Below, in pieces: positions 42,934 to 53,939 of a stretch of 64,000 nt of DNA. A program made the translations under genes and the position numbers. Where the stretch lies: NCBI GenBank assembly GCA_000182565.2, contig KQ257465.1, one strand, 5' to 3'. The stretch comes from Spizellomyces punctatus DAOM BR117 (lineage: Eukaryota). Under the pieces are notes generated by a model. That model ran no database searches. It saw nothing but the letters and a program-made list of their open reading frames with translations, and was not told the DNA's origin. Within the stretch, counting starts at the first letter, position 1, and the number at the start of each line of letters is the position of its first letter.

Positions 42934-44478
42934 ATGAGTAGACAGGTAGGAAGCTCAATTGGAGCCTTGTGGGTACTAGCATGTGTGGATATAGCTTAAA
43001 CGTACTATCGGATCCATGCGCAGGCTACCCTCCTTATCCGGGGGTTTTTGTTTGCAACTGTGTTTTTGGCAGGGTTCTTCTATCTGCTCCCTCAGGCACC
43101 CATTGTCCATTCCCCCGAACCGCCCCACAGTTTACATGTACCACAGCAGGAGGCTGCCCCGCGAAAGCCAGTGTTGCCTGTGAAACCACCGATACTGCCT
43201 GCGCCGACATCCGTTAGTAAGGAAGTTGTTCCGTCAGAATATTCGCGCGATAGACCCGAAAACATCAGGGCCCTCTTCAGAGACGAAAAAGATAGTCTGG
43301 ATGTTACCCCGGTGATTCGGAAATTGCATTTAGGTATATTTGTGTAGCCTGTTGAGTATAGCTCTGCGGTATCCGTTGACGCACCACTACAGGTCGACGG
43401 CTACGCATTTCCAAGGAAATCAACTTGTATCCCCTTTTTGGTGATGCACGAGGATCTTCTCTTGACATAACATATATGTACCGCGGCCTCAATGCCTCGT
43501 TATCAGCGACGGTCATCACAAAAGGGGAAGGGTTGATGTTTCTCCAATCAGATGTAGTTATCCCGGATACATTAGTGGAAGAGGATATGCCTGAGCGCTA
43601 TCAGGGATCCGCCATTGTATTGGAGAAGCTGACAGGGAAGAGTGGATTGGAAATCGGCGGCGTATCAGATCCATTTCGAAACGTGGTGCCAATCTACAAT
43701 GTCATTGAATCGCTGGATAATTCGAACTTTGCAGCAACCACCCTTTGGGAAACCTCTTTGCAGGACGGTCAAAAGACCTTCAAATGGAATCCAGCGAAAG
43801 ATCCTGGAATTCAGTAAGGAATCTGTCTAAATTCGAGTCTGTTAGGTCATTCGCATTAATTCTCGTAGATATGTGATGGATGTCACCGATATGTCCAAAC
43901 TACGTGACGCTGGAAAGTTTTACGACTTTGTAGCGGCATGCCACATGTTAGAGCACATAGCAAATCCACTGCGCGCTGTCAAAGAGATGGTCTCTGTTTT
44001 GAAACCCGATGGGTGAGGTGCTAAGAAGTTTGAACGTCTGGAGACCGGTATTAAATCTTCTTGACGTCCTCAAGGTATTTGTTCCTTCTTGTACCATACA
44101 AAAAGGCGTGTTTCGACCATTTTCGCGACTACACCCCAATGTCGGACTTGCTTTCCCATTGGGATCGCCACACAAGAGAAGAGGACCTCAGTGAACATTT
44201 CGAAGAGATCATGCTACTACACGACCTGTCCATGGATCCTCCTGCCGGGAGCTTGGCCCATTTCAGATCACGCAGCTTGAGAAATAAGGTACTGACTCTG
44301 CAAACCTCGTCTACTTCACAGATCGGCTGCTGATCTTTCTTAGGACGTGCGTGGGCTGCATCAACATGTATTTAGCTACGAACTGCTTGAACAGGTCTGT
44401 CAATGGGCTGGTTTGAAAACGGTCACACAAGACCGTACAGGCTTGCACATGTTTGCTTTGTGTCAGAAAAGTAGCTGA
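42934..44478 (+). CDS. Type II membrane-anchored class I SAM-dependent methyltransferase
   Basis: MSRQ|ATLLIRGFLFATVFLAGFFYLL forms an N-terminal TM followed by a Pro-rich stem. Motif I GLEIGG, then YDFVAACHMLEHIANPLRAVKEMVSVLKPDG|YLFLLVP and LHQHVF. Five GT-AG introns preserve the frame. Confidence 0.85.
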
Positions 44479-44786
44479 GTTTGTAGGTCACTAGTATTTG
44501 CATTCAATGGACCTAGCAATTATTGGATAAATAGAGTTAGGATTAACCAAACATTTGGCATCAACTGTTGTGAAGGGAATGCATCCGATGGAGTAACTAA
44601 ATATAGGGAAGGGGGGCATTCATTTTCAATTATCCCCCAACACGCGCCCGAGGACGTGTCTTCTTTCCAGAAAAGCTCTTAGGGTTGCAGGCAACAGGGC
44701 AGGAGGTGAGTTCTCGTCTTTCAAAAAGGGTTGGGCGACTCGCAAAGATAGGAAAGAGTGTCGTTGGTAACGGGCGCTCTTTCGAC

Positions 44787-47063
44787 ATGAATTCCCGCAC
44801 CGGCATCAGTGTCATCTTTTGGTATTCATGCACCGTCATCTCAACAATATACTCTAAACGGTATCTAGCAGCCTCTGGTGATCCATATTCACTTTCCCTG
44901 CTATCAGTGGGCATTGGAGCCCTTGGCTCCTTGCTCTATCGACCACGCAAAGATGTATCTATCGACAGGGGAAAGCTTTACCCACTTGCAATGCTCCACT
45001 TGGCAACTACCCTTCTGACCAACATTAGTTTGGGGAAGGCGTCAGTTGCCTTCACCTACATGGTGAAGGTAGGTACCTGCATATCCGACTTTCTGCATAT
45101 ATGAGCGGCAGTTAATATCTCGCCCATAGGCTGCAGAGCCAATCTTTGCTGCCGTCCTGTGTCGTCTCGTCCTAAATGACAGGTGGCCTTTTCACATATA
45201 CCTCTCTCTACTGCCCATATTTTTTGGAGTTAGCCTCACAGCTGGGGCAGAAATGAACTTCTCTTTAATCGGTCTGTTTTCAGCACTGGCCTCGAACCTT
45301 GCTTCCAGCTCGCGTAACGTATTCTTCAAATCGACTCTAAAGGAGCTGTCTGTGAACTGGATCTCTGCCTATTTTGAAGTCTGTCGTGGCGCATTTACAT
45401 TACTGGCTCCATTATACGGCCTCGGGGTGGTTGCAGGAAAGTGGAGCAAAAATGTGGAGGTGAAGACTCTTGGTAAGCATGTGGAATCAAGTATTGCTTT
45501 GGCGGCTTTTAACTGTTACTGATTCCAGATTCGACGATCACAAACGACGCATCGACATACCTTGTCCTTGGAGCTTCGCTACACTTCGCATACAACCTAT
45601 TTAGCTTTGCGGTCCTTGATAAGCTGTCCCCGGTGACCCACGCCGTTACAAATGTGATGAAGGTGACTTTCTGCCTTCGCAACAACTTTCTCATTCGTCT
45701 GTTCTCATCCTTACTTTCAAGCGTGTCATGACCATTATATCTTCGCTTTTATATTTCGGTACCCCCTTCAACCTAGCCCAATTCTTTGGCTTTATCCTTG
45801 CAAATACTGGGGTCGGATGGTATTCCTATGCAAAAATGAAGTTTAAGGAAACCCCGAACGGCTGGGAAGGCGTCTCTGCGTCCCGGTTAGAATGGAGAAA
45901 ATCTGCATGCATTAAGGCCGTTGGGGTGATAGTGCTGATGACGATAGCAACAGACTTCTTGGGGGTCTTCCATAGTGTTTATGCACATCGGAGTAGAGGT
46001 GTACGGGAGCTCAACCGCCGGGAATGTTTGCGCAAGATCAAGAGTCAGACGCTCAATGCTATGGGACCCCTTCTACCGGAGGACGCCAGATATGTCATCA
46101 TAGACTTGGCCACACACACCAATCTTGGGGATAATTTCCTCTCGTAAGCTGGTGAATTAGTTCGAAAGTCTTTCGTCCGGAAGATGACTGACCGTTCCTA
46201 TTCGTCACAGGCTCGGTGAACAGAAGCTGATTCATGGTTTGGACCGAAAGCTGGTGGGCGTGTGTACTCTCAGCACCAAAAGAAGCTGCTCCTTTGATCG
46301 AGTGGGAGAATATGCAAGAGACAACGTCACACTGCTTATACACGCAGGCGGGAACTTTGGCACTCTATGGGGCTACATACATGCATACCGCATGAAAGTT
46401 TTTTCGAACTTCAGGACTGCACGAATGCTATCTCTGCCGCAATCTGTTTATTATGATAAAGAACCGAAGAACGATGCGAAAATAATGGCAGATTGTCCGA
46501 ACTTGACGCTGACCTGGAGATCAAGAGATTCTCTCCAATATGCTCAGGAGAACTTTCCACAAACGCCCTCATTTTTCGTTCCTGACATGGCGTTTATGAT
46601 AGGTGATGTAATACCCGACGCGGAGCCAGTCGTAGATATCGTCTTCCTAGTCCGAAGCGATCGGGAGAGTGTGCATAAATCCGCTAGCTGGAAGGAGGCG
46701 CAGCGCCTGCTTTCGGAGCATGGTATCAGCTACGAACACGTTGACTGGAAGCTCACAAAAGACCAGGAAACCTTCCCGGGATTTGACGTTGGTGACCTGC
46801 TACTTAAGCGTTTACACATTGCCAACCGCCTGCTCTCGCGGGGAAAACTAATCGTTGCGGACCGACTACATGCAATTATACTGTCAACACTGATGGGGAA
46901 GCCGCATATCTATTTGGATAATAGTTACAAGAAAATAACGCAAGTGCGGAAAGCTGCTTTTGCTGATAAGCCCGAGTGCAGCGATGAAAACCTACAGGCA
47001 GAATATGCAGACAATCCACTGGTGGCTGCTGAAATGGCAATTAAAAGATTACACAAACTTTAG
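44787..47063 (+). CDS. Fusion protein: TPT/SLC35E-family transporter (candidate PEP transporter) plus polysaccharide pyruvyltransferase
   Basis: N-half: VAFTYMVK|AAEPIFAAVL, YLSLLPIFFGV, SALASNLASSSRNVFFK and LSPVTHAVTNVMK|RV (TPT family). C-half: HTNLGDNFLS|LGE, HAGGNFGTLWG, LPQSVYY, PDMAFMIG and VADRLHAIILSTLMGKPHIYLDNSYKKI (pyruvyltransferase, Pvg1/EpsO-like). The domain junction lies within one exon (45722-46143). Confidence 0.9.
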
Positions 47064-47099
47064 TTTATAATTGTATTTATTTCTGCTTCACTGTTGGCA

Positions 47100-50000
47100 T
47101 CTCCAGACTTGTAATCTAACTTGTAAATAATATACACTACTACAAAGAAAGCTAGTGATGCATTTGTAGTGATGAAGATGTCTACATGCATTGCAAGCTA
47201 GTCAGATGAGGGTACATGGAGGATGGTTTCATTTAGCAAACTTGCAAATTTGAGTACAGCAACCAAGAATTTTGCTTTAGTACTAGTAGTGATATGCCAA
47301 GATTTGGTGATGGATTGTGTGACCCATAAGGGACTGGACTGTCACCCAATTGGAAAAGAACAGTACTGCCACCAACAAATCAGTTGTAGTGCTGATGCAG
47401 TTATTAGCATAGAGATTTAGCTGAGATTCCTGTATATATAAGAATAAATCTTGCAGAGCAAGTCATGAGGCAGAAGCTGGTAGCAACAGTACAACCCCAT
47501 AAACTAGCTTCTCAACTCCAATCCTAGGTTTACAGGAACCCAACAGAGGATTTCATTGGACTAATCACCTGCATGGAAGCCTCCAAATCCTGCTCAGTTC
47601 ACACTAACCAAATCCTGCTCAGTTCATACTAACCAAATCCCCAATTGCCTCTTGTCCCCAACACAGCTACCAAAACCCTCAAAAAGGATTCACAGACCAT
47701 TTACACCAGTACAGCCCTCCAATGACCTGCTAGGGAAGTTCCTGTCTCAAATCCATTACACATTGACAACATAGTCAACAGCCATTACTGTATATTACTA
47801 TTATTATCTGAACCTATATTTAAGTAAACATAGTAGTTTAACAGGTCTCAGTTCTAACTGTGTATGATCAAAATATGTGACCTTTCTATATAAAAGACTA
47901 CCTATAACTGTGTATTGGTGGTAACTATTGTGTAAAGATGAAGGAACCTCTACCTACAATCCAGGTGAATAAAAAACAAATTTGGAGGTATATTTAAGGT
48001 TAATTTATATATAGTAGGGTCAGGCCTGCCCTACAATTCTATTATTACCTATAACTTCCCAAAGATTTAGTATTAATACCTGCTAGCAGTATATAGTATA
48101 CTAGCACTTTTGGTATTTCTGCAGACTTAGATGCATCCATTTATCCCTAAGGACTGTTGCCTTAATCCTTCTAAAATTGGGTGCTAATGTACACCAGAAC
48201 TCACTACCACTTCTCCAAACACTTCCAAGAAATACTGCATAGTTAGCTGGGCTTGAATTGGACATGGTTCACTCCATTTGTATTGGCCTGTGAGGAAACT
48301 AGTAAGTAGCTGTCCTACAATAAACAGCCAGTATATTAATATAAATATCAGGATCTTGGACAAGTATTTATGGAAGAACTATGCAAATACATCCTGTTAA
48401 ATTATTATATATATTTTATTTATGGAGGAGGAAGCAGTTGCCCAATAATGTAGAAAGAGGAAGAGGTACAGAGTTGGGAGACCAGCAGTACAGACATGCA
48501 GCTTTTTATCTGCCAAGATCACAGAGATGGTGCAGGTTAACAATTATTGAAATCTACACAAACTGATAAACTTTGATGAGAGAAAAATAAGAATTGTAGT
48601 ATTGATATATTACTATGGTGTAACTAAAAAATATCTATAGCTCTTTGAGAAAAACAATCTCCATTGAGGTCTTTTGGAATGCAACCAGTCTACAAAATAT
48701 GTCAAACAATTGGAAGTTCCAGCATATTTATAGAGTATAAATGTAAAAGTCTATGCATGTGGAGCCCTTGGCAGGTATGTATTTTAAAAATGACACATGA
48801 ATACAGAGGCCCACCCCTCCTTTCAATATAACTTTGTTAAGCATGAGCACCAGACAGAAATGGACCTCAGCACAATTGCAGAACAAACACACATCAAGCA
48901 GGCATCAGTAGGGAGCAACCAACATGGTACAATTGACTGGAGCAAGTGATGCTGGAAATACAGGCAATGATGACCTGCTACCACTGTGCTTGCCAAGTAA
49001 AAACTGGAAGGTCTGTCACTCCAGGAGCACAGTTCTATTTGAAACAGGCAGCCATCCAATCTGTACACAAACTTAATTACCCATATTTCTCCTGGTAGAA
49101 ATGGCATGAAAAATTGAAAAGCAAATCTTGCTGTTCAACAGGTGCAGACTATTTGTCTCAAGATGCAGTCTGTTTTTAAGCTTTAGCCAAGTCTCACAAT
49201 CCAGACCCATCTAATCTCTTATTAGAAGCATTGAGCAAAATTGAAAGCTGACCTTGACATTTCCATGCATACTTCCACCAATTTTATTAAGCAGTACAAT
49301 CCCAATGCAATTCTGCTTTTATATTAACAAAAATTAGTACCATATCTGATAGCAAGAGTGGATCAAGATCTAATAACATTTCCATTATGTAGAAACAGCT
49401 TATGTTGTCAGATACTTCAAATTTCACCAATTTATAATTGGTCTGCACCCTCATTTTTTTCTCTTAGCATCTTACAAAGAAAAATGAAAGTCTTCAGCCA
49501 CCTGAAAATGCAAAGACATGTGGGGCTGTATACCACTGACTGAAACTAATTGCAGACTATTTAGTATAGTAACAGGGTTTGCTAGGACTGTCCTCAAGAC
49601 AAACTGATCTGGGGCACCTTTCAGTCTCTTATCACCCTGGTAATATAAAAGTACTGTCCAAGATACTAAATATGGTAACCAATTGTGGGCTTCTCAACTC
49701 ATTCTCCAATGGTAATCAACTCCCACTCATAACACATACTTGAAAGCCAACTACTAATTCTCCACTTACTGCCAGGGGTTTGCCACCTAGGCAGTTTTCA
49801 GAGTGGCAAATACATACTGGCATTGGGGTCTAGAAATCCTGACAGGCAGTTGAATTGGTGAGCCTGAGAAAGGAAATGATGGCATGGTAGATACCTAGGA
49901 TAGGTGTACTTTAATGGATGACTAGTATTATGGGAGGTCATACTGAGATATTGTTCAGACAGTCCTCATCTGATTTCTGGTTGATATCAGACATGATAGA

Positions 50001-50114
50001 ATTGGAATTTGACTGAATAGAGCCATCGCTGTGCATGTGAGTCAATTTACAGATCCAAATCAAGCTATAAGCAATGTGGGAGTTTTGGAATATGTTCCAG
50101 ATGCAAAACTCAAT
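47100..50114. other. AT-rich, CpG-free degenerate sequence, probably a decayed repeat or transposon relic
   Basis: By eye there is no CG dinucleotide from ~46985 to 50026. No long ORF. Abuts the copia element. Confidence 0.55.
47583..47640 (+). repeat. 25-bp tandem repeat (2.3 copies)
   Basis: ccaaatcctgctcagttcacactaa / ccaaatcctgctcagttcatactaa / ccaaatcc. Confidence 0.9.
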
Positions 50115-53100
50115 GCAATGGCTGTAATTGCTCTGTCACTGAGTGATGCCCAACTCATGCATGTCCAGATGGCTGGGACTGCAAGGGAGGCCTGGTTAAA
50201 GCTCAGTGACATCCACCAAAGGAAAGGAATTGCCAGTAGGCTCTATCTAAGGAGGAAATTTCTCACTCTGAAGATGGAAGACGGCGCTGGGGGCATGTTG
50301 GGACACATAAACACAGTCAGGACAATGGCTCAGCAGTTGGAGGCCATTGGGGCGCCAGTCAGTGAAGAAGACCAAGTCATCACCCTACTCTACAGCCTAC
50401 CAGAGAGTTATGAACAGCTGGTGGTGTCTTTGGAGGCCAGGAGTGATTCTCTGATGCTGGAATTCCTCACATCATGGCTTTTGCATGAAGAAACATGCAG
50501 GAAGGAAGCTGGGAGTGAAGGAGATAGCAAAGGGAAGGCCTTTTTCAGCAGGGATGGCAGGCAGAAGGTTGGCAAGCATGGTGGGACCAAGAAGACAGCA
50601 GGGAAGTGCTTCTACTGCAACAAGAAGGGTCACTTCAAGAAGGACTGCAGGAAGGTTCTGGTGGACACCAAAGAGCAGGCCAATCAAGCCAGTACCAGTC
50701 AGGCAACTCAGAATGAGTTCCTATTCTTTGCTCAGTTGGGAGATGACACCAAAAACTCTCAGGGAGCAGTCTGGTGGAATGTGGACTTGGGTGCTTCACA
50801 GCACATGTCACACAGAAGGGATTGGATGACCAATTACAAGGAGATGTCACCAATTCAAGTCCATCTGGCAGACAACAGAACAGTTCAGGCAATAGGGAAG
50901 GGCCAGATCACACTTGAGACAGACAGAAACCGATTCTGTACCCTCAAAGATGTGTGGTTTGTTCCCAAGCTTGAAAAGAACTTGTTTTCAGTAAGAAGAG
51001 CCACTGAAAACGGTGCCAAAGTGGAATTTGGCAACAAGGGATGCTGAATCAAGACTTCAGACAGTCAGGAAGCAATCCAGGGAACTCTAGGCAGTGGTCT
51101 ATACATGTTTCATGCAAGAGAACATGCAAACATAGCCTCTGGAATGAGTTTGGACCTCTGGCATCGCAGGTTAGGACACCTGAACGTCAACAGCATCAAA
51201 ATCTTGGCTAGGAACCAGCTGGGAAGCAGTCTGGAGGTCAAGAATCACACAGAAACATCACCATGTGAAGCCTGTGCCATTGGAAAGATTACCAGGTGTC
51301 CCTTTCCAAAGGGAGAAGCAGCTAGAGCAGCTCTACTGCTGGGGGTGGTTCACAGTGATGTGTGTGGGCCCATGAAGACACCAAGTCATGGTGGGGCAAA
51401 GTACTTTGTCACATTCATTGATGACAAGTCAAGGATGATGGCAGTTTATCTTCTGAAGGAGAAGAGTGAGGTTCTCAGCAAATTCAAGGAGTTTGAGGCC
51501 TGGGCAACCAACTTCACGGGGCAGAAGATCAAAACTCTCAGATCAGACAATGGGGGAGAGTATGTGGGCGAAGAATTCAAGAAATTCTGCAAACAGAAGG
51601 GAATTCAGCAGCAATTCAGCACCCCCTACACACCAGAGCAGAATGGTGTTGCTGAGAGGATGAACAGGATGCTGGTGGAAATGGGAAGGTGCATGCTGCA
51701 CCACAGTGGACTCAGCTACAAGTTCTGGGGCGAGGCAATCATGACAGCGGCCTATCTCAGGAACAGGAGCCCCACTGCAGCACTCAGCAACCAATCAACA
51801 CAATTTCAAGAGTTTACAGGCGGTAAACCAGCTCTCCAGCACCTCAGAGTGTTTGGCTGCATGGCCTACACTCATATTTCAAAAGAAAAGCGGTCAAAAC
51901 TTGATGAGAAGGCCAAGAAGGCAGTCATGGTCGGCTACAGTACTCAGAGTAAGGCCTACAGACTGTGGGTACCTGAAATGAACCAAGTTGTCATGTCAAG
52001 GGACGTCATCTTTGATGAAAACTTGATGTGGAGCACTCAGCAGCGACTGCAGAGTGTACCACAGCAAGACCAAGAGCTACAGATGCCTCTGGGAGGGGAG
52101 CCTTCGTTCTTGGATGACCAAGAAGGGCTAGGGACGGTTCAAGAGACTCAGAGACCATCTAGCATCACTCCAGACAACTCTTCAGCATCAGAAGATGATG
52201 GGGACGACTTCCAGGATGCTGAGGAAGTGCCAGAACTCAGCAGGAAGAGTGCCAGATTTCACAAACCACTGGGAGAGTGGTGGATTGCAAAGCCAACTCA
52301 GTCAAACCTGGCTTTTGCCTTCACCATTGGGGAAGTTCCACAGGAAGAACCCAGCACTCTGGCTGAAGCTAGGACCAGACATGATGCCAAACAGTGGGAG
52401 GCGGCTGTCAAAGCAGAATATGACTCTCTGATGGAGAATCAGACATGGGACTTAGTCAAACTACCACCAGGAAGATCCACAGTTGGCTGCAAGTGGGTTT
52501 TCAAGCTGAAACTCAAGTCAGATGGCTCTGTAGAGCGCTACAAGGCCAGACTGGTAGCCAAAGGATACTCCCAAGTTGAAGGACTGGACTACAAGGAGAC
52601 ATTTGCCCCAGTAGTCAAGTTTGCAACCATCAGGATGGTCCTGACACTAGCAGCCATGAAGGACATGGAGATTCACCAAATGGATGTCAAAACAGCATTC
52701 TTGAATGGGACCATTGAGGAGGACATCTACATGGACCAACCAGAAGGCTTCACCACGGCAAATGGGCTTGTCTGCAAGCTGAAGAAGAGTTTGTACGGGC
52801 TAAAGCAAGCTCCAAGAGCCTGGAACAAAGTCATTGACGGGCAACTCAAAGAACTTGGCTTTGAAAGGTGTGAATCAGACCACGGGCTGTACATCAACAA
52901 GAAGATGGGCATCCACCTTATCCTGTATGTGGATGACCTTATTCTGGCATCAAAGGACGACCAGGAGTTGTTAAAACTCAAAGAAGAACTCAAGAAGCAG
53001 TTCAAGATGGCTGATATGGGCCAGTTAGAGCATTTTCTCGGCATTCAAGTGGTCAGGGACAGAGCCAACAGGTCAATCTGGCTCTCCCAACAGCGGTACC

Positions 53101-53939
53101 TCGGTCAAACATTGAAGAAATTCAACATGAGTAACAGCAAACCAGTTGCCACACCACTAGAGAATGGCCACAAGCTCACCAAGGCCATGTCACCACAAAC
53201 TGAGGCAGAACAGCAAGAAATGAATGGGGTTCCTTTCAGAAGTGCTGTTGGAAGTCTCATTTATGCAATGCTGGGCACCAGACCAGACATAGCAGCGGCA
53301 GTTGGATCAGTCAGCCAGTACCTTTCCAACCCCGGACATCAGCACTGGATAGCAGTCAAACGGATCATGCGGTACCTGAATGGCACCACAGACCTAGGAC
53401 TTCAACTGGGCGGCATTCAGAGCGAGTGGGAGCTATCTGCATACTCTGATGCAGATTGGGGCGGTGATTTGGACTTCAGGAAGTCTACCACTGGCTTCTT
53501 AGTCAAGATTGGCAGCAGCACAGTCAGCTGGCAAAGCAAGAGGCAACCTACAGTCGCCCTATCATCAACAGAGTCAGAGTACATGGCTCTTTGTCAAGCT
53601 ACCAAGGAAGTTATCTGGTTCAGAACACTTCTAGGCGAGCTAGGACATCAGCAAAGTGGTCCTACAACATTGTATGGTGACAATCAGGGTGCCATAGCAC
53701 TTGCCAACAACCCAACACATCATGCAAGGACCAAACACATTGATGTGTGGCACCACTTCATCAGACAAGCAGTAGAAGACAAGAAAATCAGCCTCAAGTA
53801 CTGTCAGACAGAAGAAATGACGGCTGACATTCTCACCAAGGCCTTACCCAAGACAAAACACCTTAAACTTTGTGGTAAAATGGGTCTCTGTCGGAAATCA
53901 GATGATTCACTGAGTGGGAGTGTTGAGATTCAGGCTTAA
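50115..53939 (+). pseudogene. copia gag-pol polyprotein, disrupted
   Basis: Lacks the Gag N-terminus present in copy 2. TGA at 51045-51047 interrupts an otherwise continuous frame. The protease active-site DSG motif reads DLG. Confidence 0.9.

What the first reader, a model, noticed from the sequence alone, without database searches (positions are those of the whole stretch)
44787..47063. Transporter-pyruvyltransferase fusion: a possible self-supplying Golgi pyruvylation enzyme
Seen: one spliced reading frame carries a complete TPT/SLC35E-type transporter, then an extra hydrophobic helix (AVGVIVLMTIATDFLGVF), then a full polysaccharide pyruvyltransferase domain. The junction is inside a single exon (45722-46143) with no stop, so it does not depend on my splice model. 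Known: fission yeast pyruvylates galactose using a Golgi-lumenal enzyme (Pvg1) and separate TPT-family PEP transporters (Pet proteins). Inference: donor import and transfer are combined here in one polypeptide, and the extra helix places the catalytic domain in the lumen. This would allow PEP channelling and implies pyruvylated, anionic surface glycans in this fungus. I do not know of a characterised protein with this architecture, but could not search for one.
Basis: partly seen in the sequence, partly recalled or inferred. Interest (0 to 1): 0.88.

Follow-up and report, generated by a model that had tools for sequence, protein, structure and literature searches.

The report
Phosphate-translocator fused to Golgi-type pyruvyltransferase
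A soil chytrid gene joins a membrane transporter, probably for phosphoenolpyruvate, to the enzyme that uses that compound to add acidic pyruvate groups to sugars, and the same joined gene occurs in other chytrids and in molluscs but has not been studied.

Summary
Five exons (44787-47063, + strand, four GT..AG introns of 56-67 nt) translate exactly to a public 677-aa protein, SPPG_09475 of Spizellomyces punctatus.

- **Architecture.** Residues 5-288 are a TPT-family 10-helix transporter (Pfam E 3.7e-55). Residues 306-332 form an eleventh helix. Residues 344-676 are a Pvg1-like pyruvyltransferase (Pfam E 1.1e-19). The junction lies wholly in exon 4.
- **Transporter half.** Its best solved relative is the plastid-type triose-phosphate/phosphate translocator (E 3.4e-25), far ahead of nucleotide-sugar-type carriers (E 0.4). 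It keeps all four phosphate-binding residues of that translocator.
- **Enzyme half.** It keeps all three proposed catalytic residues of Pvg1p.
- **Topology.** The charge bias of the loops and a co-varying cysteine pair, placed about where Pvg1p has a disulfide, put the enzyme in the lumen.
- **Recurrence.** The fusion is not unique. At least 22 of 164 retrieved relatives have it, from chytrids, a sea slug and unnamed eukaryotes, and an Atlas cluster of 60 is mostly molluscan.
- **Literature.** No paper in the library describes the fusion.

PEP specificity, Golgi location and channelling are inferred. The RNA data could not test the junction. Verdict: a real, unstudied covalent variant of the known Pvg1/Pet system.

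The parts
44787..45068 (+). Exon 1, residues 1-94: start codon, TM1-TM3 and the start of TM4 of the transporter. It ends with K94, the equivalent of GsTPT2 Lys204.
   Evidence: (TPT profile 2-98, E 4.2e-10). There is no in-frame ATG upstream within the open frame from 44607.
45130..45472 (+). Exon 2, residues 95-208: TM4-TM7. It holds S153 at the position of GsTPT2 Phe263.
   Evidence: (TPT profile 99-195, E 1.7e-20).
45529..45662 (+). Exon 3, residues 209-253: TM8 and TM9. It holds Y230 (Tyr339 equivalent) and ends with K253 (Lys362 equivalent) at 45660-45662.
   Evidence: (TPT profile 218-256).
45722..46143 (+). Exon 4, residues 254-393, the junction exon. It holds R254 (Arg363 equivalent, 45722-45724), TM10 with the TPT domain ending near 45826, the basic linker, the 11th helix, Cys355 (46025-46027) and D390 of the GD motif (46130-46132).
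   Evidence: The frame is open throughout.
45878..45958 (+). Eleventh transmembrane helix, residues 306-332 (hydrophobic core 314-341). I read it as the signal anchor of the pyruvyltransferase.
   Evidence: AlphaFold helix H306-332. Strongest hydropathy peak of the protein. A hydrophobic segment lies at this place in 16 of 17 aligned fusions.
46211..47063 (+). Exon 5, residues 394-677 plus the stop codon (47061-47063): the body of the pyruvyltransferase. It holds R497 (46518-46520), R612 of the DRLH motif (46863-46865) and Cys650 (46977-46979).
   Evidence: PS_pyruv_trans 63-280, E 4.7e-19; 100% identity to P0001.
47064..47150 (+). 3' UTR up to the poly(A) site.
   Evidence: In RNA run X10, 27 reads have loose poly(A) ends behind 47150. 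Depth is 117-192 over 46824-47126, almost all with the first mate on +.

Best explanation
The gene encodes one polypeptide that combines the two activities fission yeast keeps on separate proteins. The N-terminal 10-helix TPT-family domain is a phosphate-translocator-type antiporter with both ends in the cytosol. I infer that it imports phosphoenolpyruvate (PEP) into a secretory compartment, most likely the Golgi, in exchange for inorganic phosphate. The eleventh helix, the transferase's own type II anchor, crosses the membrane once more and places the Pvg1-like ketal pyruvyltransferase in the lumen. There the enzyme transfers the pyruvyl group of PEP to a sugar, probably galactose, of a glycoprotein, glycolipid or wall glycan. 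The reaction releases phosphate, which is the counter-substrate the antiporter needs. The fusion would therefore be a stoichiometrically closed module: one PEP in, one ketal made, one phosphate out. Shown: the architecture, the folds, the conserved phosphate-binding and catalytic residues, the recurrence of the fusion, and mRNA 3'-end expression. Inferred: PEP as cargo, the compartment, the acceptor, the antiport coupling and any channelling.
For: 1. Gene and frame: the spliced translation equals P0001 exactly, and the junction lies within one exon.
2. Domains: TPT at 5-288 (E 3.7e-55) and PS_pyruv_trans at 387-633 (E 1.1e-19).
3. Solved relatives by sequence: Pvg1p 5ax7, E 1.6e-29 over residues 378-638; GsTPT2 5y78, E 3.4e-25 over residues 5-295. 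The next transporter, SLC35B1, is only at E 0.41.
4. Model and fold: AlphaFold on 17 fusions gives mean pLDDT 83.5, ten helices in 3-294, helix 306-332, then an alpha/beta domain. Foldseek against PDB gives 5ax7 (TM-score on target 0.81) and 5y78 (0.84, rmsd 2.7, 28% identity). Nucleotide-sugar-type carriers have 13-16% identity.
5. Phosphate site: GsTPT2 binds phosphate through Lys204, Tyr339, Lys362 and Arg363 (bioRxiv 10.1101/169169, passages). By the alignment these are K94, Y230, K253 and R254. Across the 17 aligned fusions the counts are K 15 of 15 with a residue, Y 15 of 17 (2 F), K 17 of 17 and R 17 of 17.
6. Catalytic site: the proposed Pvg1p catalytic residues D106, R217 and R337 (PMC4872226 figure legend) align to D390, R497 and R612. 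Each is invariant in 17 of 17.
7. Topology, charge bias: K+R counts in the loops favour the side that carries the N-terminus and the TM10-TM11 linker in 13 of 17 fusions, with 2 ties and 2 reversed.
8. Topology, cysteines: Cys355 and Cys650 lie within about 3 residues of where the Pvg1p C68-C373 disulfide maps. They co-occur, with both present in 10, neither in 7 and one alone in 0 of 17.
9. [quoted passage not shown]
10. Conservation of the fusion: 9 of 12 long hits and 8 of 31 further long representatives have both domains. So do 19 of 164 stored proteins by my own HMMs. Three more, P0160-P0162, are fragments that end in the start of the transferase.
11. Taxa: named sources are Spizellomyces, Phlyctochytrium, Quaeritorhiza and the sea slug Elysia. 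An Atlas cluster of 60 members (PS_pyruv_trans 97%, TPT 93%) is all eukaryotic and mostly Mollusca.
12. Known precedent for the pair: Pvg1p relies on the Golgi PEP transporters Pet1p and Pet2p (PMC4872226 and PMC6801904 passages).
13. Hints for PEP: the nearest named stand-alone relative found is a plant plastid-type translocator, P0163 (33% identity). It carries Asn at the Phe263 position, as reported for the PEP translocator AtPPT1. The window protein has a small Ser there, and Thr in place of His185.
Against: - No transport or enzyme assay exists, and the cargo is inferred from conserved phosphate-binding residues. Those residues would equally fit triose phosphate, 3-PGA or another phospho-compound.
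- SLC35B1, a nucleotide carrier, also shows a basic pair at the KR position in the alignment.
- The residue said to discriminate PEP (Phe263 position) is not consistently small across fusions: F 6, L 3, Y 2, S 2, and A, T, V, M one each, of 17. That argument holds only for the chytrid clade.
- I could not retrieve the S. pombe Pet1p/Pet2p sequences, so similarity to the only known Golgi PEP transporters is untested.
- The RNA data do not test the junction. Run X10 is 3'-biased, body depth is 0-6, and no spliced joints were listed. An internal start at Met292, just before helix 11, cannot be excluded, although P0002 has no Met there.
- One of 17 fusions (P0024) lacks a detectable eleventh hydrophobic segment.
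- Golgi location is by analogy only.
- The model tool gives no coordinates, so I could not measure the distance between the two cysteines or between the transporter mouth and the active site.
Confidence: 0.65

Rival explanations
1. The architecture is as described, but the transporter half carries something other than PEP. It could be a nucleotide sugar that builds the acceptor, or another phosphorylated metabolite, with PEP reaching the lumen by a separate carrier.
For: TPT-family membership alone does not fix the substrate, since the Pfam family also holds nucleotide-sugar transporters (weak UAA and EamA hits). The PEP-versus-triose-phosphate discriminating position is variable among fusions. 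His185 of GsTPT2 is not kept: T, A or M in 14 of 14 with a residue. Atlas look-alikes of residues 1-300 include clusters named as nucleotide-sugar or SLC35D-type (feature similarity only).
Against: All four phosphate-binding residues of GsTPT2 are kept and nearly invariant. Sequence and fold similarity to GsTPT2 far exceeds that to any solved nucleotide-sugar-type carrier. A fusion conserved across phyla is most simply explained if the carrier supplies the fused enzyme's own donor.
Confidence: 0.17
2. The single long protein is not the main product. An internal promoter or start (Met292, nt 45836-45838) yields a free type II pyruvyltransferase, with or without a separate transporter product.
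For: Met292 is followed by a short basic tail and then the hydrophobic helix, a typical type II N-terminus. The RNA reads are concentrated at the 3' end and give no joints or coverage across 45300-46000.
Against: The frame is open and uninterrupted from TM10 through the linker into the transferase within one exon. The orthologue P0002 has no Met at that place but keeps the fusion and a similar linker. The fusion is kept in at least 22 proteins from distant eukaryotes. The 3' bias of run X10 is also seen on the neighbouring gene, so it is a property of the library.
Confidence: 0.1
3. The transporter half is a decayed membrane anchor that no longer transports. The protein is simply a polytopically anchored pyruvyltransferase.
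For: Other relatives of the transferase are fused to unrelated polytopic regions with no recognisable family (P0040, P0064, P0082, P0004, P0005, P0013). A membrane anchor alone may therefore be selected for.
Against: The residues lining the phosphate site (K94, Y230, K253, R254) are invariant or nearly so across fusions that share only 24-36% identity (P0002: 56%). That conservation argues for a working binding site. The full 10-helix fold is predicted with good confidence.
Confidence: 0.05

Closest known systems
S. pombe Pvg1p pyruvyltransferase with the Golgi PEP transporters Pet1p/Pet2p
   Same: The C-half matches Pvg1p in family and fold (E 1.6e-29, TM-score 0.81). Catalytic D/R/R are kept, cysteines lie near the Pvg1p disulfide positions, and one membrane anchor sits directly upstream. 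Both activities (PEP supply and pyruvyl transfer) are needed in the same compartment.
   Different: Here both activities are on one chain. Identity to Pvg1p is low (23-24% in Foldseek). The H168 position, which was subjected to mutation analysis in Pvg1p (PMC4872226 legend), is Ile here and variable among fusions, so the acceptor may differ. Similarity of the N-half to Pet1p/Pet2p could not be tested because their sequences were not retrieved.
Plastidic phosphate translocators (GsTPT2, PDB 5y78; plant PPT/TPT)
   Same: 10-helix DMT fold, 28% identity, and all four phosphate-binding residues kept. A strict 1:1 exchange with phosphate is reported for this family.
   Different: There is no transit peptide, as TM1 starts at residue 3. 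His185 is replaced by Thr and Phe263 by Ser. The domain is fused to a lumenal enzyme. A non-photosynthetic fungus has no plastid, so the membrane must be another one.
Golgi/ER nucleotide-sugar-type carriers (SLC35B1, Vrg4, CMP-sialic acid transporter)
   Same: The same superfamily fold (TM-score on target 0.6-0.78). The logic is the same: import the donor and export the by-product of the lumenal transferase.
   Different: Only 13-16% identity, and no significant sequence match (E 0.41 or worse).
Other fusions of the pyruvyltransferase domain seen among the hits
   Same: The same PS_pyruv_trans domain at the C-terminus of a longer protein.
   Different: The partners are GT25 (P0075, P0090), galactosyltransferase plus FkbM methyltransferase plus GT2 (P0063), a Polysacc_synt flippase-type domain (P0144), or unclassified polytopic regions. 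None of these is a TPT domain.

Membership tests
PS_pyruv_trans (PF04230), Pvg1-type ketal pyruvyltransferase | Profile match above the curated cut-off over the whole domain | tested here: met
   71.8 bits against a cut-off of 25.3, profile positions 1-280, residues 387-633.
PS_pyruv_trans (PF04230), Pvg1-type ketal pyruvyltransferase | [quoted passage not shown] | tested here: met
   They align to D390, R497 and R612 and are invariant in 17 of 17 fusions. Residue names come from the PMC4872226 figure legend.
PS_pyruv_trans (PF04230), Pvg1-type ketal pyruvyltransferase | Two-lobed alpha/beta/alpha fold of Pvg1p | tested here: met
   AlphaFold model with pLDDT mostly 80-95 in 350-677. Foldseek hit 5ax7_A: E 2.4e-12, TM-score on target 0.81.
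PS_pyruv_trans (PF04230), Pvg1-type ketal pyruvyltransferase | PEP-dependent pyruvyl transfer to a sugar acceptor | not testable with these tools
   Needs an enzyme assay.
PS_pyruv_trans (PF04230), Pvg1-type ketal pyruvyltransferase | Type II topology with a lumenal catalytic domain | tested here: inconclusive
   One TM helix lies directly upstream. The K+R bias puts the linker on the cytosolic side in 13 of 17. There is a co-varying Cys pair. All of this is indirect.
TPT family (PF03151), phosphate-translocator type | Profile match above the cut-off over the whole domain, and a 10-helix fold | tested here: met
   187.8 bits against a cut-off of 30, profile positions 3-291. Ten helices in 3-294. 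5y78_A: TM-score on target 0.84.
TPT family (PF03151), phosphate-translocator type | Phosphate-binding Lys204, Tyr339, Lys362 and Arg363 of GsTPT2 | tested here: met
   K94, Y230, K253 and R254.
TPT family (PF03151), phosphate-translocator type | Plastid targeting (N-terminal transit peptide) | tested here: not met
   TM1 begins at residue 3 and there is no in-frame ATG upstream. It is therefore not a plastidic translocator in the strict sense, though it may work like one.
TPT family (PF03151), phosphate-translocator type | 1:1 exchange of a phosphorylated C3 compound against phosphate | not testable with these tools
   Needs a liposome assay.
Golgi PEP transporters Pet1p/Pet2p of S. pombe | Closer sequence kinship to Pet1p/Pet2p than to other TPT-family members | not tested
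   Their sequences did not appear in my three word-index searches, and the paper that describes them is not held.
Nucleotide-sugar transporters (SLC35-type) | Significant sequence similarity to a characterised nucleotide-sugar carrier | tested here: not met
   The best is SLC35B1 at E 0.41 over 59 residues, with 13-16% identity in structural alignments.

The most novel reading that the evidence does not exclude
The fusion is an obligately coupled machine. The lumenal pyruvyltransferase sits over the exit of its own PEP/phosphate antiporter. It takes PEP as it emerges and hands back the released phosphate as counter-substrate, so pyruvylation runs without a free lumenal PEP pool. This module would be an ancient opisthokont invention kept in chytrids and molluscs. 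It would mark still unseen pyruvylated glycans in chytrid walls or zoospore coats, and it would be the missing enzyme for the pyruvylated galactose of sea-hare glycolipids. It would be the first natural covalent fusion of a Golgi donor transporter with the transferase it feeds; I know of no other, from recall, and made no systematic search.
Probability: 0.3. Interest if true: 0.78.

Novelty: new variant of a known kind. Interest (0 to 1): 0.6.

Why it matters
- **Support for the two-component model.** Eukaryotic pyruvylation is understood in one organism only. The two reviews I searched list pyruvylated glycans in a sea hare, sponges and algae and name no eukaryotic pyruvyltransferase other than fission-yeast Pvg1p in the passages I saw (PMC6801904 and PMC6994554 passages). 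A conserved fusion of a phosphate-translocator-type carrier with a Pvg1-like enzyme is 'Rosetta stone' evidence that donor import and transfer belong together. It independently backs the Pet/Pvg1 model.
- **Testable predictions.** It predicts anionic, pyruvylated surface glycans in chytrids. It also gives concrete candidate genes for the molluscan pyruvylated glycolipids.
- **An experimental system.** It offers a natural case for asking whether fusing a Golgi transporter to its client enzyme gives channelling or only co-localisation. That is also of interest for glyco-engineering of sialic-acid-like charge.
- **Limit.** The claim is an architecture with a strong functional inference, not a demonstrated activity. 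The gene is already deposited under automatic names.

Tried and rejected
- **RNA test of the junction.** One RNA run of the same species label (X10, raw reads) and three contig runs were laid. X10 is 3'-biased (60-nt reads, poly(A) ends), gave depth 0-6 over the gene body and listed no joints, so it says nothing about one versus two mRNAs. Contigs of X4 and X6 run unspliced through introns 1 and 4, so they are DNA. X1 ('RNA?' is only a guess) gave two 151-nt pieces inside exon 4 (45764-45914 and 45931-46081). Neither spans both domains.
- **Own-genome search for paralogues.** No genome is held. A tblastn of P0001 on the window found only the five exons.
- **Third protein search.** Run with the alignment, it returned only 4 proteins and no new taxa.
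- **Search with residues 1-301.** It gave 5 hits at E <= 1e-10. Three of these proved to be N-terminal fragments of fusions, so they are not stand-alone relatives. My cut-off may have hidden weaker named hits such as S. pombe proteins.
- **Single or multiple origin of the fusion.** On a FastTree of 155 transferase domains the 19 fusions need 14 changes, with at least 10 forced by starred branches. I reject this as evidence for repeated origin. Many 'non-fusion' rows are N-terminally cut fragments: 26 with a truncated domain and 32 with under 25 residues upstream. The method was also the least careful one.
- **Phe263-to-small-residue as a family-wide PEP signature.** Rejected, because the position is F in 6 of 17 fusions.
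- **Is the polytopic N-region of P0040 a hidden TPT domain?** hhalign of the fusion alignment against P0040 aligned only the transferase part, and Pfam at E <= 1 gave nothing.
- **Papers not held.** Yoritsune 2014 on Pet1p/Pet2p and Knappe 2003. My memory that plant TPT-family nucleotide-sugar carriers replace the Arg of the KR pair (the KT, KD and KV/A/G groups) is therefore recall only and carries no weight here.
- **Supplements.** Supplementary files of papers were not consulted.
Full report
**What is there.** On the + strand between 44787 and 47063 lies a five-exon gene.
- Exons: 44787-45068, 45130-45472, 45529-45662, 45722-46143 and 46211-47063.
- Introns: 61, 56, 59 and 67 nt, all GT..AG. 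Each gives an in-frame stop if retained.
- The spliced frame is 2034 nt with one terminal stop.
- Its translation is letter for letter the public 677-aa protein P0001, named by NCBI 'uncharacterized protein SPPG_09475 [Spizellomyces punctatus DAOM BR117]'.
- A tblastn of P0001 on the window finds only these five pieces, so there is no paralogue within the 64 kb.

**Domains and junction.**
- Pfam places TPT (PF03151) at residues 5-288 (E 3.7e-55) and PS_pyruv_trans (PF04230) at 387-633 (E 1.1e-19).
- The exon pieces hit the TPT profile collinearly: positions 2-98, 99-195, 218-256 and 257-291.
- Exon 4 encodes residues 254-393. That covers the end of TM9, TM10, a basic linker, the extra helix and the first part of the transferase up to its GD motif.
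- An AlphaFold model built on an alignment of 17 fusion proteins has mean pLDDT 83.5 and pTM 0.59. It shows ten helices in 3-294, a further helix at 306-332 and then an alpha/beta domain.
- The low-confidence stretches are loops at 200-213, 297-303 and 336-343.
- Foldseek against the PDB returns two top hits: yeast Pvg1p (5ax7, E 2.4e-12, TM-score on target 0.81) and the triose-phosphate/phosphate translocator GsTPT2 (5y78, E 2.4e-12, 0.84, rmsd 2.7, 28% identity).

**What kind of transporter.**
- By sequence, the N-half matches GsTPT2 at E 3.4e-25. The next solved carrier, human SLC35B1, reaches only E 0.41 (7 distinct sequences listed at E <= 10).
- Structurally, SLC35B1, Vrg4 and the CMP-sialic acid transporter share the fold but only 13-16% identity.
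- The GsTPT2 preprint (10.1101/169169, passages read) reports that phosphate is held by Lys204, Lys362 and Arg363 with Tyr339. It says these four are strictly conserved in higher-plant plastidic translocators and that mutating them greatly reduces exchange. It also explains the family's strict 1:1 exchange with phosphate.
- I counted chain positions in the alignment (chain index plus 89 gives residue number). The equivalents are K94, K253, R254 and Y230.
- In the 17-fusion alignment the counts are K 15 of 15 with a residue, K 17 of 17, R 17 of 17 and Y 15 of 17 with 2 F. The overall identity of these sequences to P0001 is only 24-56%.
- The binding site for a phosphorylated cargo is therefore under selection.

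**Is the cargo PEP?** This is inference.
- The same preprint models that Phe263 (Phe262 in AtTPT) clashes with the methylene of PEP, and that the PEP translocator AtPPT1 has Asn there.
- The window protein has Ser153 at that position, and Thr75 in place of His185.
- The only named stand-alone relative my word-index search found is a plant protein with an N-terminal extension (P0163, 33% identity over 299 residues). It has Asn at both positions.
- Against this, the Phe263 position varies across the 17 fusions: F 6, L 3, Y 2, S 2, and A, T, V, M one each. The signature is not family-wide.
- The stronger argument is contextual: the fused enzyme's donor is PEP.
- I could not compare with S. pombe Pet1p/Pet2p. 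They did not appear in my three searches, and the paper describing them is not held.

**The enzyme half.**
- Residues 378-638 align to Pvg1p at E 1.6e-29.
- The Pvg1p structure paper (PMC4872226, passages and a figure legend read) marks D106, R217 and R337 as proposed catalytic residues. [quoted passage not shown]
- With chain index plus 53, the catalytic residues align to D390 (GD motif), R497 and R612 (DRLH motif). Each is invariant in 17 of 17 fusions.
- The H168 position is Ile and variable, so the acceptor may differ.
- Cys355 and Cys650 fall within about 3 residues of where C68 and C373 would map; the HMMER alignment does not reach them, so I extrapolated. They co-occur strictly, with both in 10, neither in 7 and one alone in 0 of 17.
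- A second pair, Cys412 and Cys420, is present in most of the fusions.
- Paired cysteines fit an oxidising, lumenal location.

**Topology.**
- A hydrophobic segment lies between the transporter and the transferase in 16 of 17 fusions; P0024 lacks one. In P0001 it is the strongest hydropathy peak of the whole protein.
- I counted K+R in the loops, using helix cores from the model mapped through the alignment and skipping loops over 60 residues.
- The side that carries the N-terminus and the TM10-TM11 linker is the more basic in 13 of 17, equal in 2 and less basic in 2 (P0009 and P0010, a near-identical pair).
- By the positive-inside rule, both ends of the 10-helix domain are cytosolic and the eleventh helix carries the transferase to the other side.
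- The helix need not be an 'addition'. Among stand-alone relatives with a complete domain and 25-160 residues upstream, 19 have one hydrophobic segment there and 46 have none; I presume the latter are mostly bacterial cytoplasmic enzymes, but I did not check this.
- A carrier with a cytosolic C-terminus and a type II enzyme with a cytosolic N-terminus can be fused head to tail with no change of topology. I think that is what happened.

**The fusion is conserved, not an annotation accident.**
- With exon 5 as query, 12 long proteins were found among 1420 candidates, and 9 of them carry both domains in the same order.
- The full HMMER scan gave 3689 relatives at E <= 0.001 (1471 at <= 1e-10, 42 at <= 1e-30). 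Of the 150 listed, I scanned the 31 of 465 aa or more that had not been scanned before. Eight of these have both domains.
- My own HMMs, run over all 164 stored proteins, find both domains in 19.
- Three further 'TPT-only' hits (P0160-P0162) run through the eleventh helix into the GD motif and then stop at a contig end. They are fragments of fusions (by eye for all three; by BLASTP for P0162).
- Named sources are Spizellomyces, Phlyctochytrium arcticum (56% identity overall, 679 aa), Quaeritorhiza haematococci and the sea slug Elysia crispata.
- The ESM Atlas holds a cluster of 60 members (PS_pyruv_trans 97%, TPT 93%). It is all eukaryotic, with Mollusca the commonest phylum.
- Whether the fusion arose once is open. 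On a quick tree the fusions are scattered, but fragment rows confound the count.

**Expression.**
- RNA run X10 (same species label, raw 60-nt reads, 1671 laid) shows depth 117-192 at 46824-47126. Twenty-seven reads have poly(A) tails behind 47150. The gene is therefore transcribed on the + strand and polyadenylated about 87 nt after the stop.
- The library is 3'-biased: the upstream gene shows the same pattern, with poly(A) at 44551.
- Depth over the body is 0-6 and no joints were listed. The decisive question, one mRNA or two, did not complete.

**Mechanism proposed.**
- PEP enters through the antiporter half.
- The lumenal half transfers its pyruvyl group to a sugar and releases phosphate.
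- The phosphate leaves through the same antiporter.
- This mirrors the nucleotide-sugar/NMP logic of the Golgi.
- Steps shown: architecture, folds, conserved sites, recurrence and 3'-end expression.
- Steps inferred: cargo, compartment, acceptor, coupling and channelling.

**Literature.**
- Passages in PMC4872226 and PMC6801904 state that Pvg1p is localised to the Golgi membrane and depends on Pet1p and Pet2p for PEP.
- PMC6801904 and PMC6994554 (passages) list eukaryotic pyruvylated glycans in Aplysia glycolipids, S. pombe, red and green algae and sponges.
- In PMC6801904 the words 'fusion', 'chytrid' and 'mollus' do not occur.
- Searches that found no description of the fusion:
  - pyruvyltransferase + phosphoenolpyruvate transporter + Golgi: 4 papers, none on a fusion.
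  - 'pyruvyl transferase' + 'triose-phosphate transporter' + fusion: none of the 20 listed (of 44) holds both 'pyruvyl transferase' and 'triose-phosphate transporter'.
  - pyruvyltransferase + Pvg1 + homolog + eukaryot: 8 papers.
  - PF04230 + PF03151: 0 papers.
  - chytrid + pyruvyl: 2 papers; by their abstracts, on glyphosate sensitivity and on biopesticides.
  - pyruvyltransferase + mollus: 3 papers; by their titles and abstracts none identifies a molluscan enzyme.
- The library lacks most subscription journals, and supplements were closed, so 'not in print' is limited to these searches.

**Surroundings.**
- Upstream on the same strand is a well-expressed gene with a class I methyltransferase domain (Methyltransf_11, E 3.5e-08, at 43846-44016), polyadenylated at 44551.
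- Downstream, 50013-53939 holds a Ty1/copia-type retroelement with gag, integrase and reverse transcriptase.
- I see no glycan-gene cluster.

**Verdict.**
- The transporter is of phosphate-translocator type.
- The extra helix is probably the enzyme's own anchor.
- The fusion recurs and is already deposited under automatic names.

It is a new, unstudied covalent variant of a known two-component system.

Noticed in passing
window 43846-44551 (+): The upstream neighbour carries a class I SAM methyltransferase domain (Methyltransf_11, E 3.5e-08, on the ORF piece 43846-44016). In RNA run X10 it is strongly covered (depth 162 at 44400-44500), with poly(A) ends behind 44551.
   Followed up: partly
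window 50013-53939 (+): A Ty1/copia-type LTR retroelement. The ORF at 50013-51047 has copia-type gag, a zinc knuckle and a Pol beta-barrel. The ORF at 51048-53939 has integrase, an SH3-like domain and RVT_2 (E 8e-80). The two long ORFs are separated by a single stop. LTRs were not looked for.
   Followed up: no
window 45660-45724: Intron 3 (45663-45721) falls exactly between the codons of K253 and R254, the two adjacent phosphate-binding residues of the transporter.
   Followed up: no
proteins P0040, P0064, P0082 and P0004, P0005, P0013 (hits): Other relatives of the transferase carry a 270-360-residue N-terminal region with 5-7 strong hydrophobic peaks. This region matches no Pfam family at E <= 1, apart from a weak TauE hit in P0005. 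In P0040 it does not align to the TPT part of the fusion profile. These may be fusions of the same enzyme to a different, unclassified membrane domain.
   Followed up: partly
proteins P0063, P0075, P0090, P0144, P0077: The pyruvyltransferase domain is also found fused to other partners: a galactosyltransferase plus FkbM methyltransferase plus GT2 (P0063, 1592 aa), GT25 (P0075, P0090), and a Polysacc_synt flippase-type domain with about 11 hydrophobic peaks (P0144; P0077 is similar in hydropathy).
   Followed up: no
proteins P0160-P0162: Three apparent stand-alone TPT proteins from short contigs of AT-rich organisms (sequences rich in N, K and I) are really N-terminal fragments of the fusion. 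They end just after the GD motif of the transferase.
   Followed up: yes
window 45836-45838: Met292 sits just before a basic stretch and the eleventh helix. Initiation there would give a free type II pyruvyltransferase. The Phlyctochytrium orthologue has no Met at this place.
   Followed up: partly
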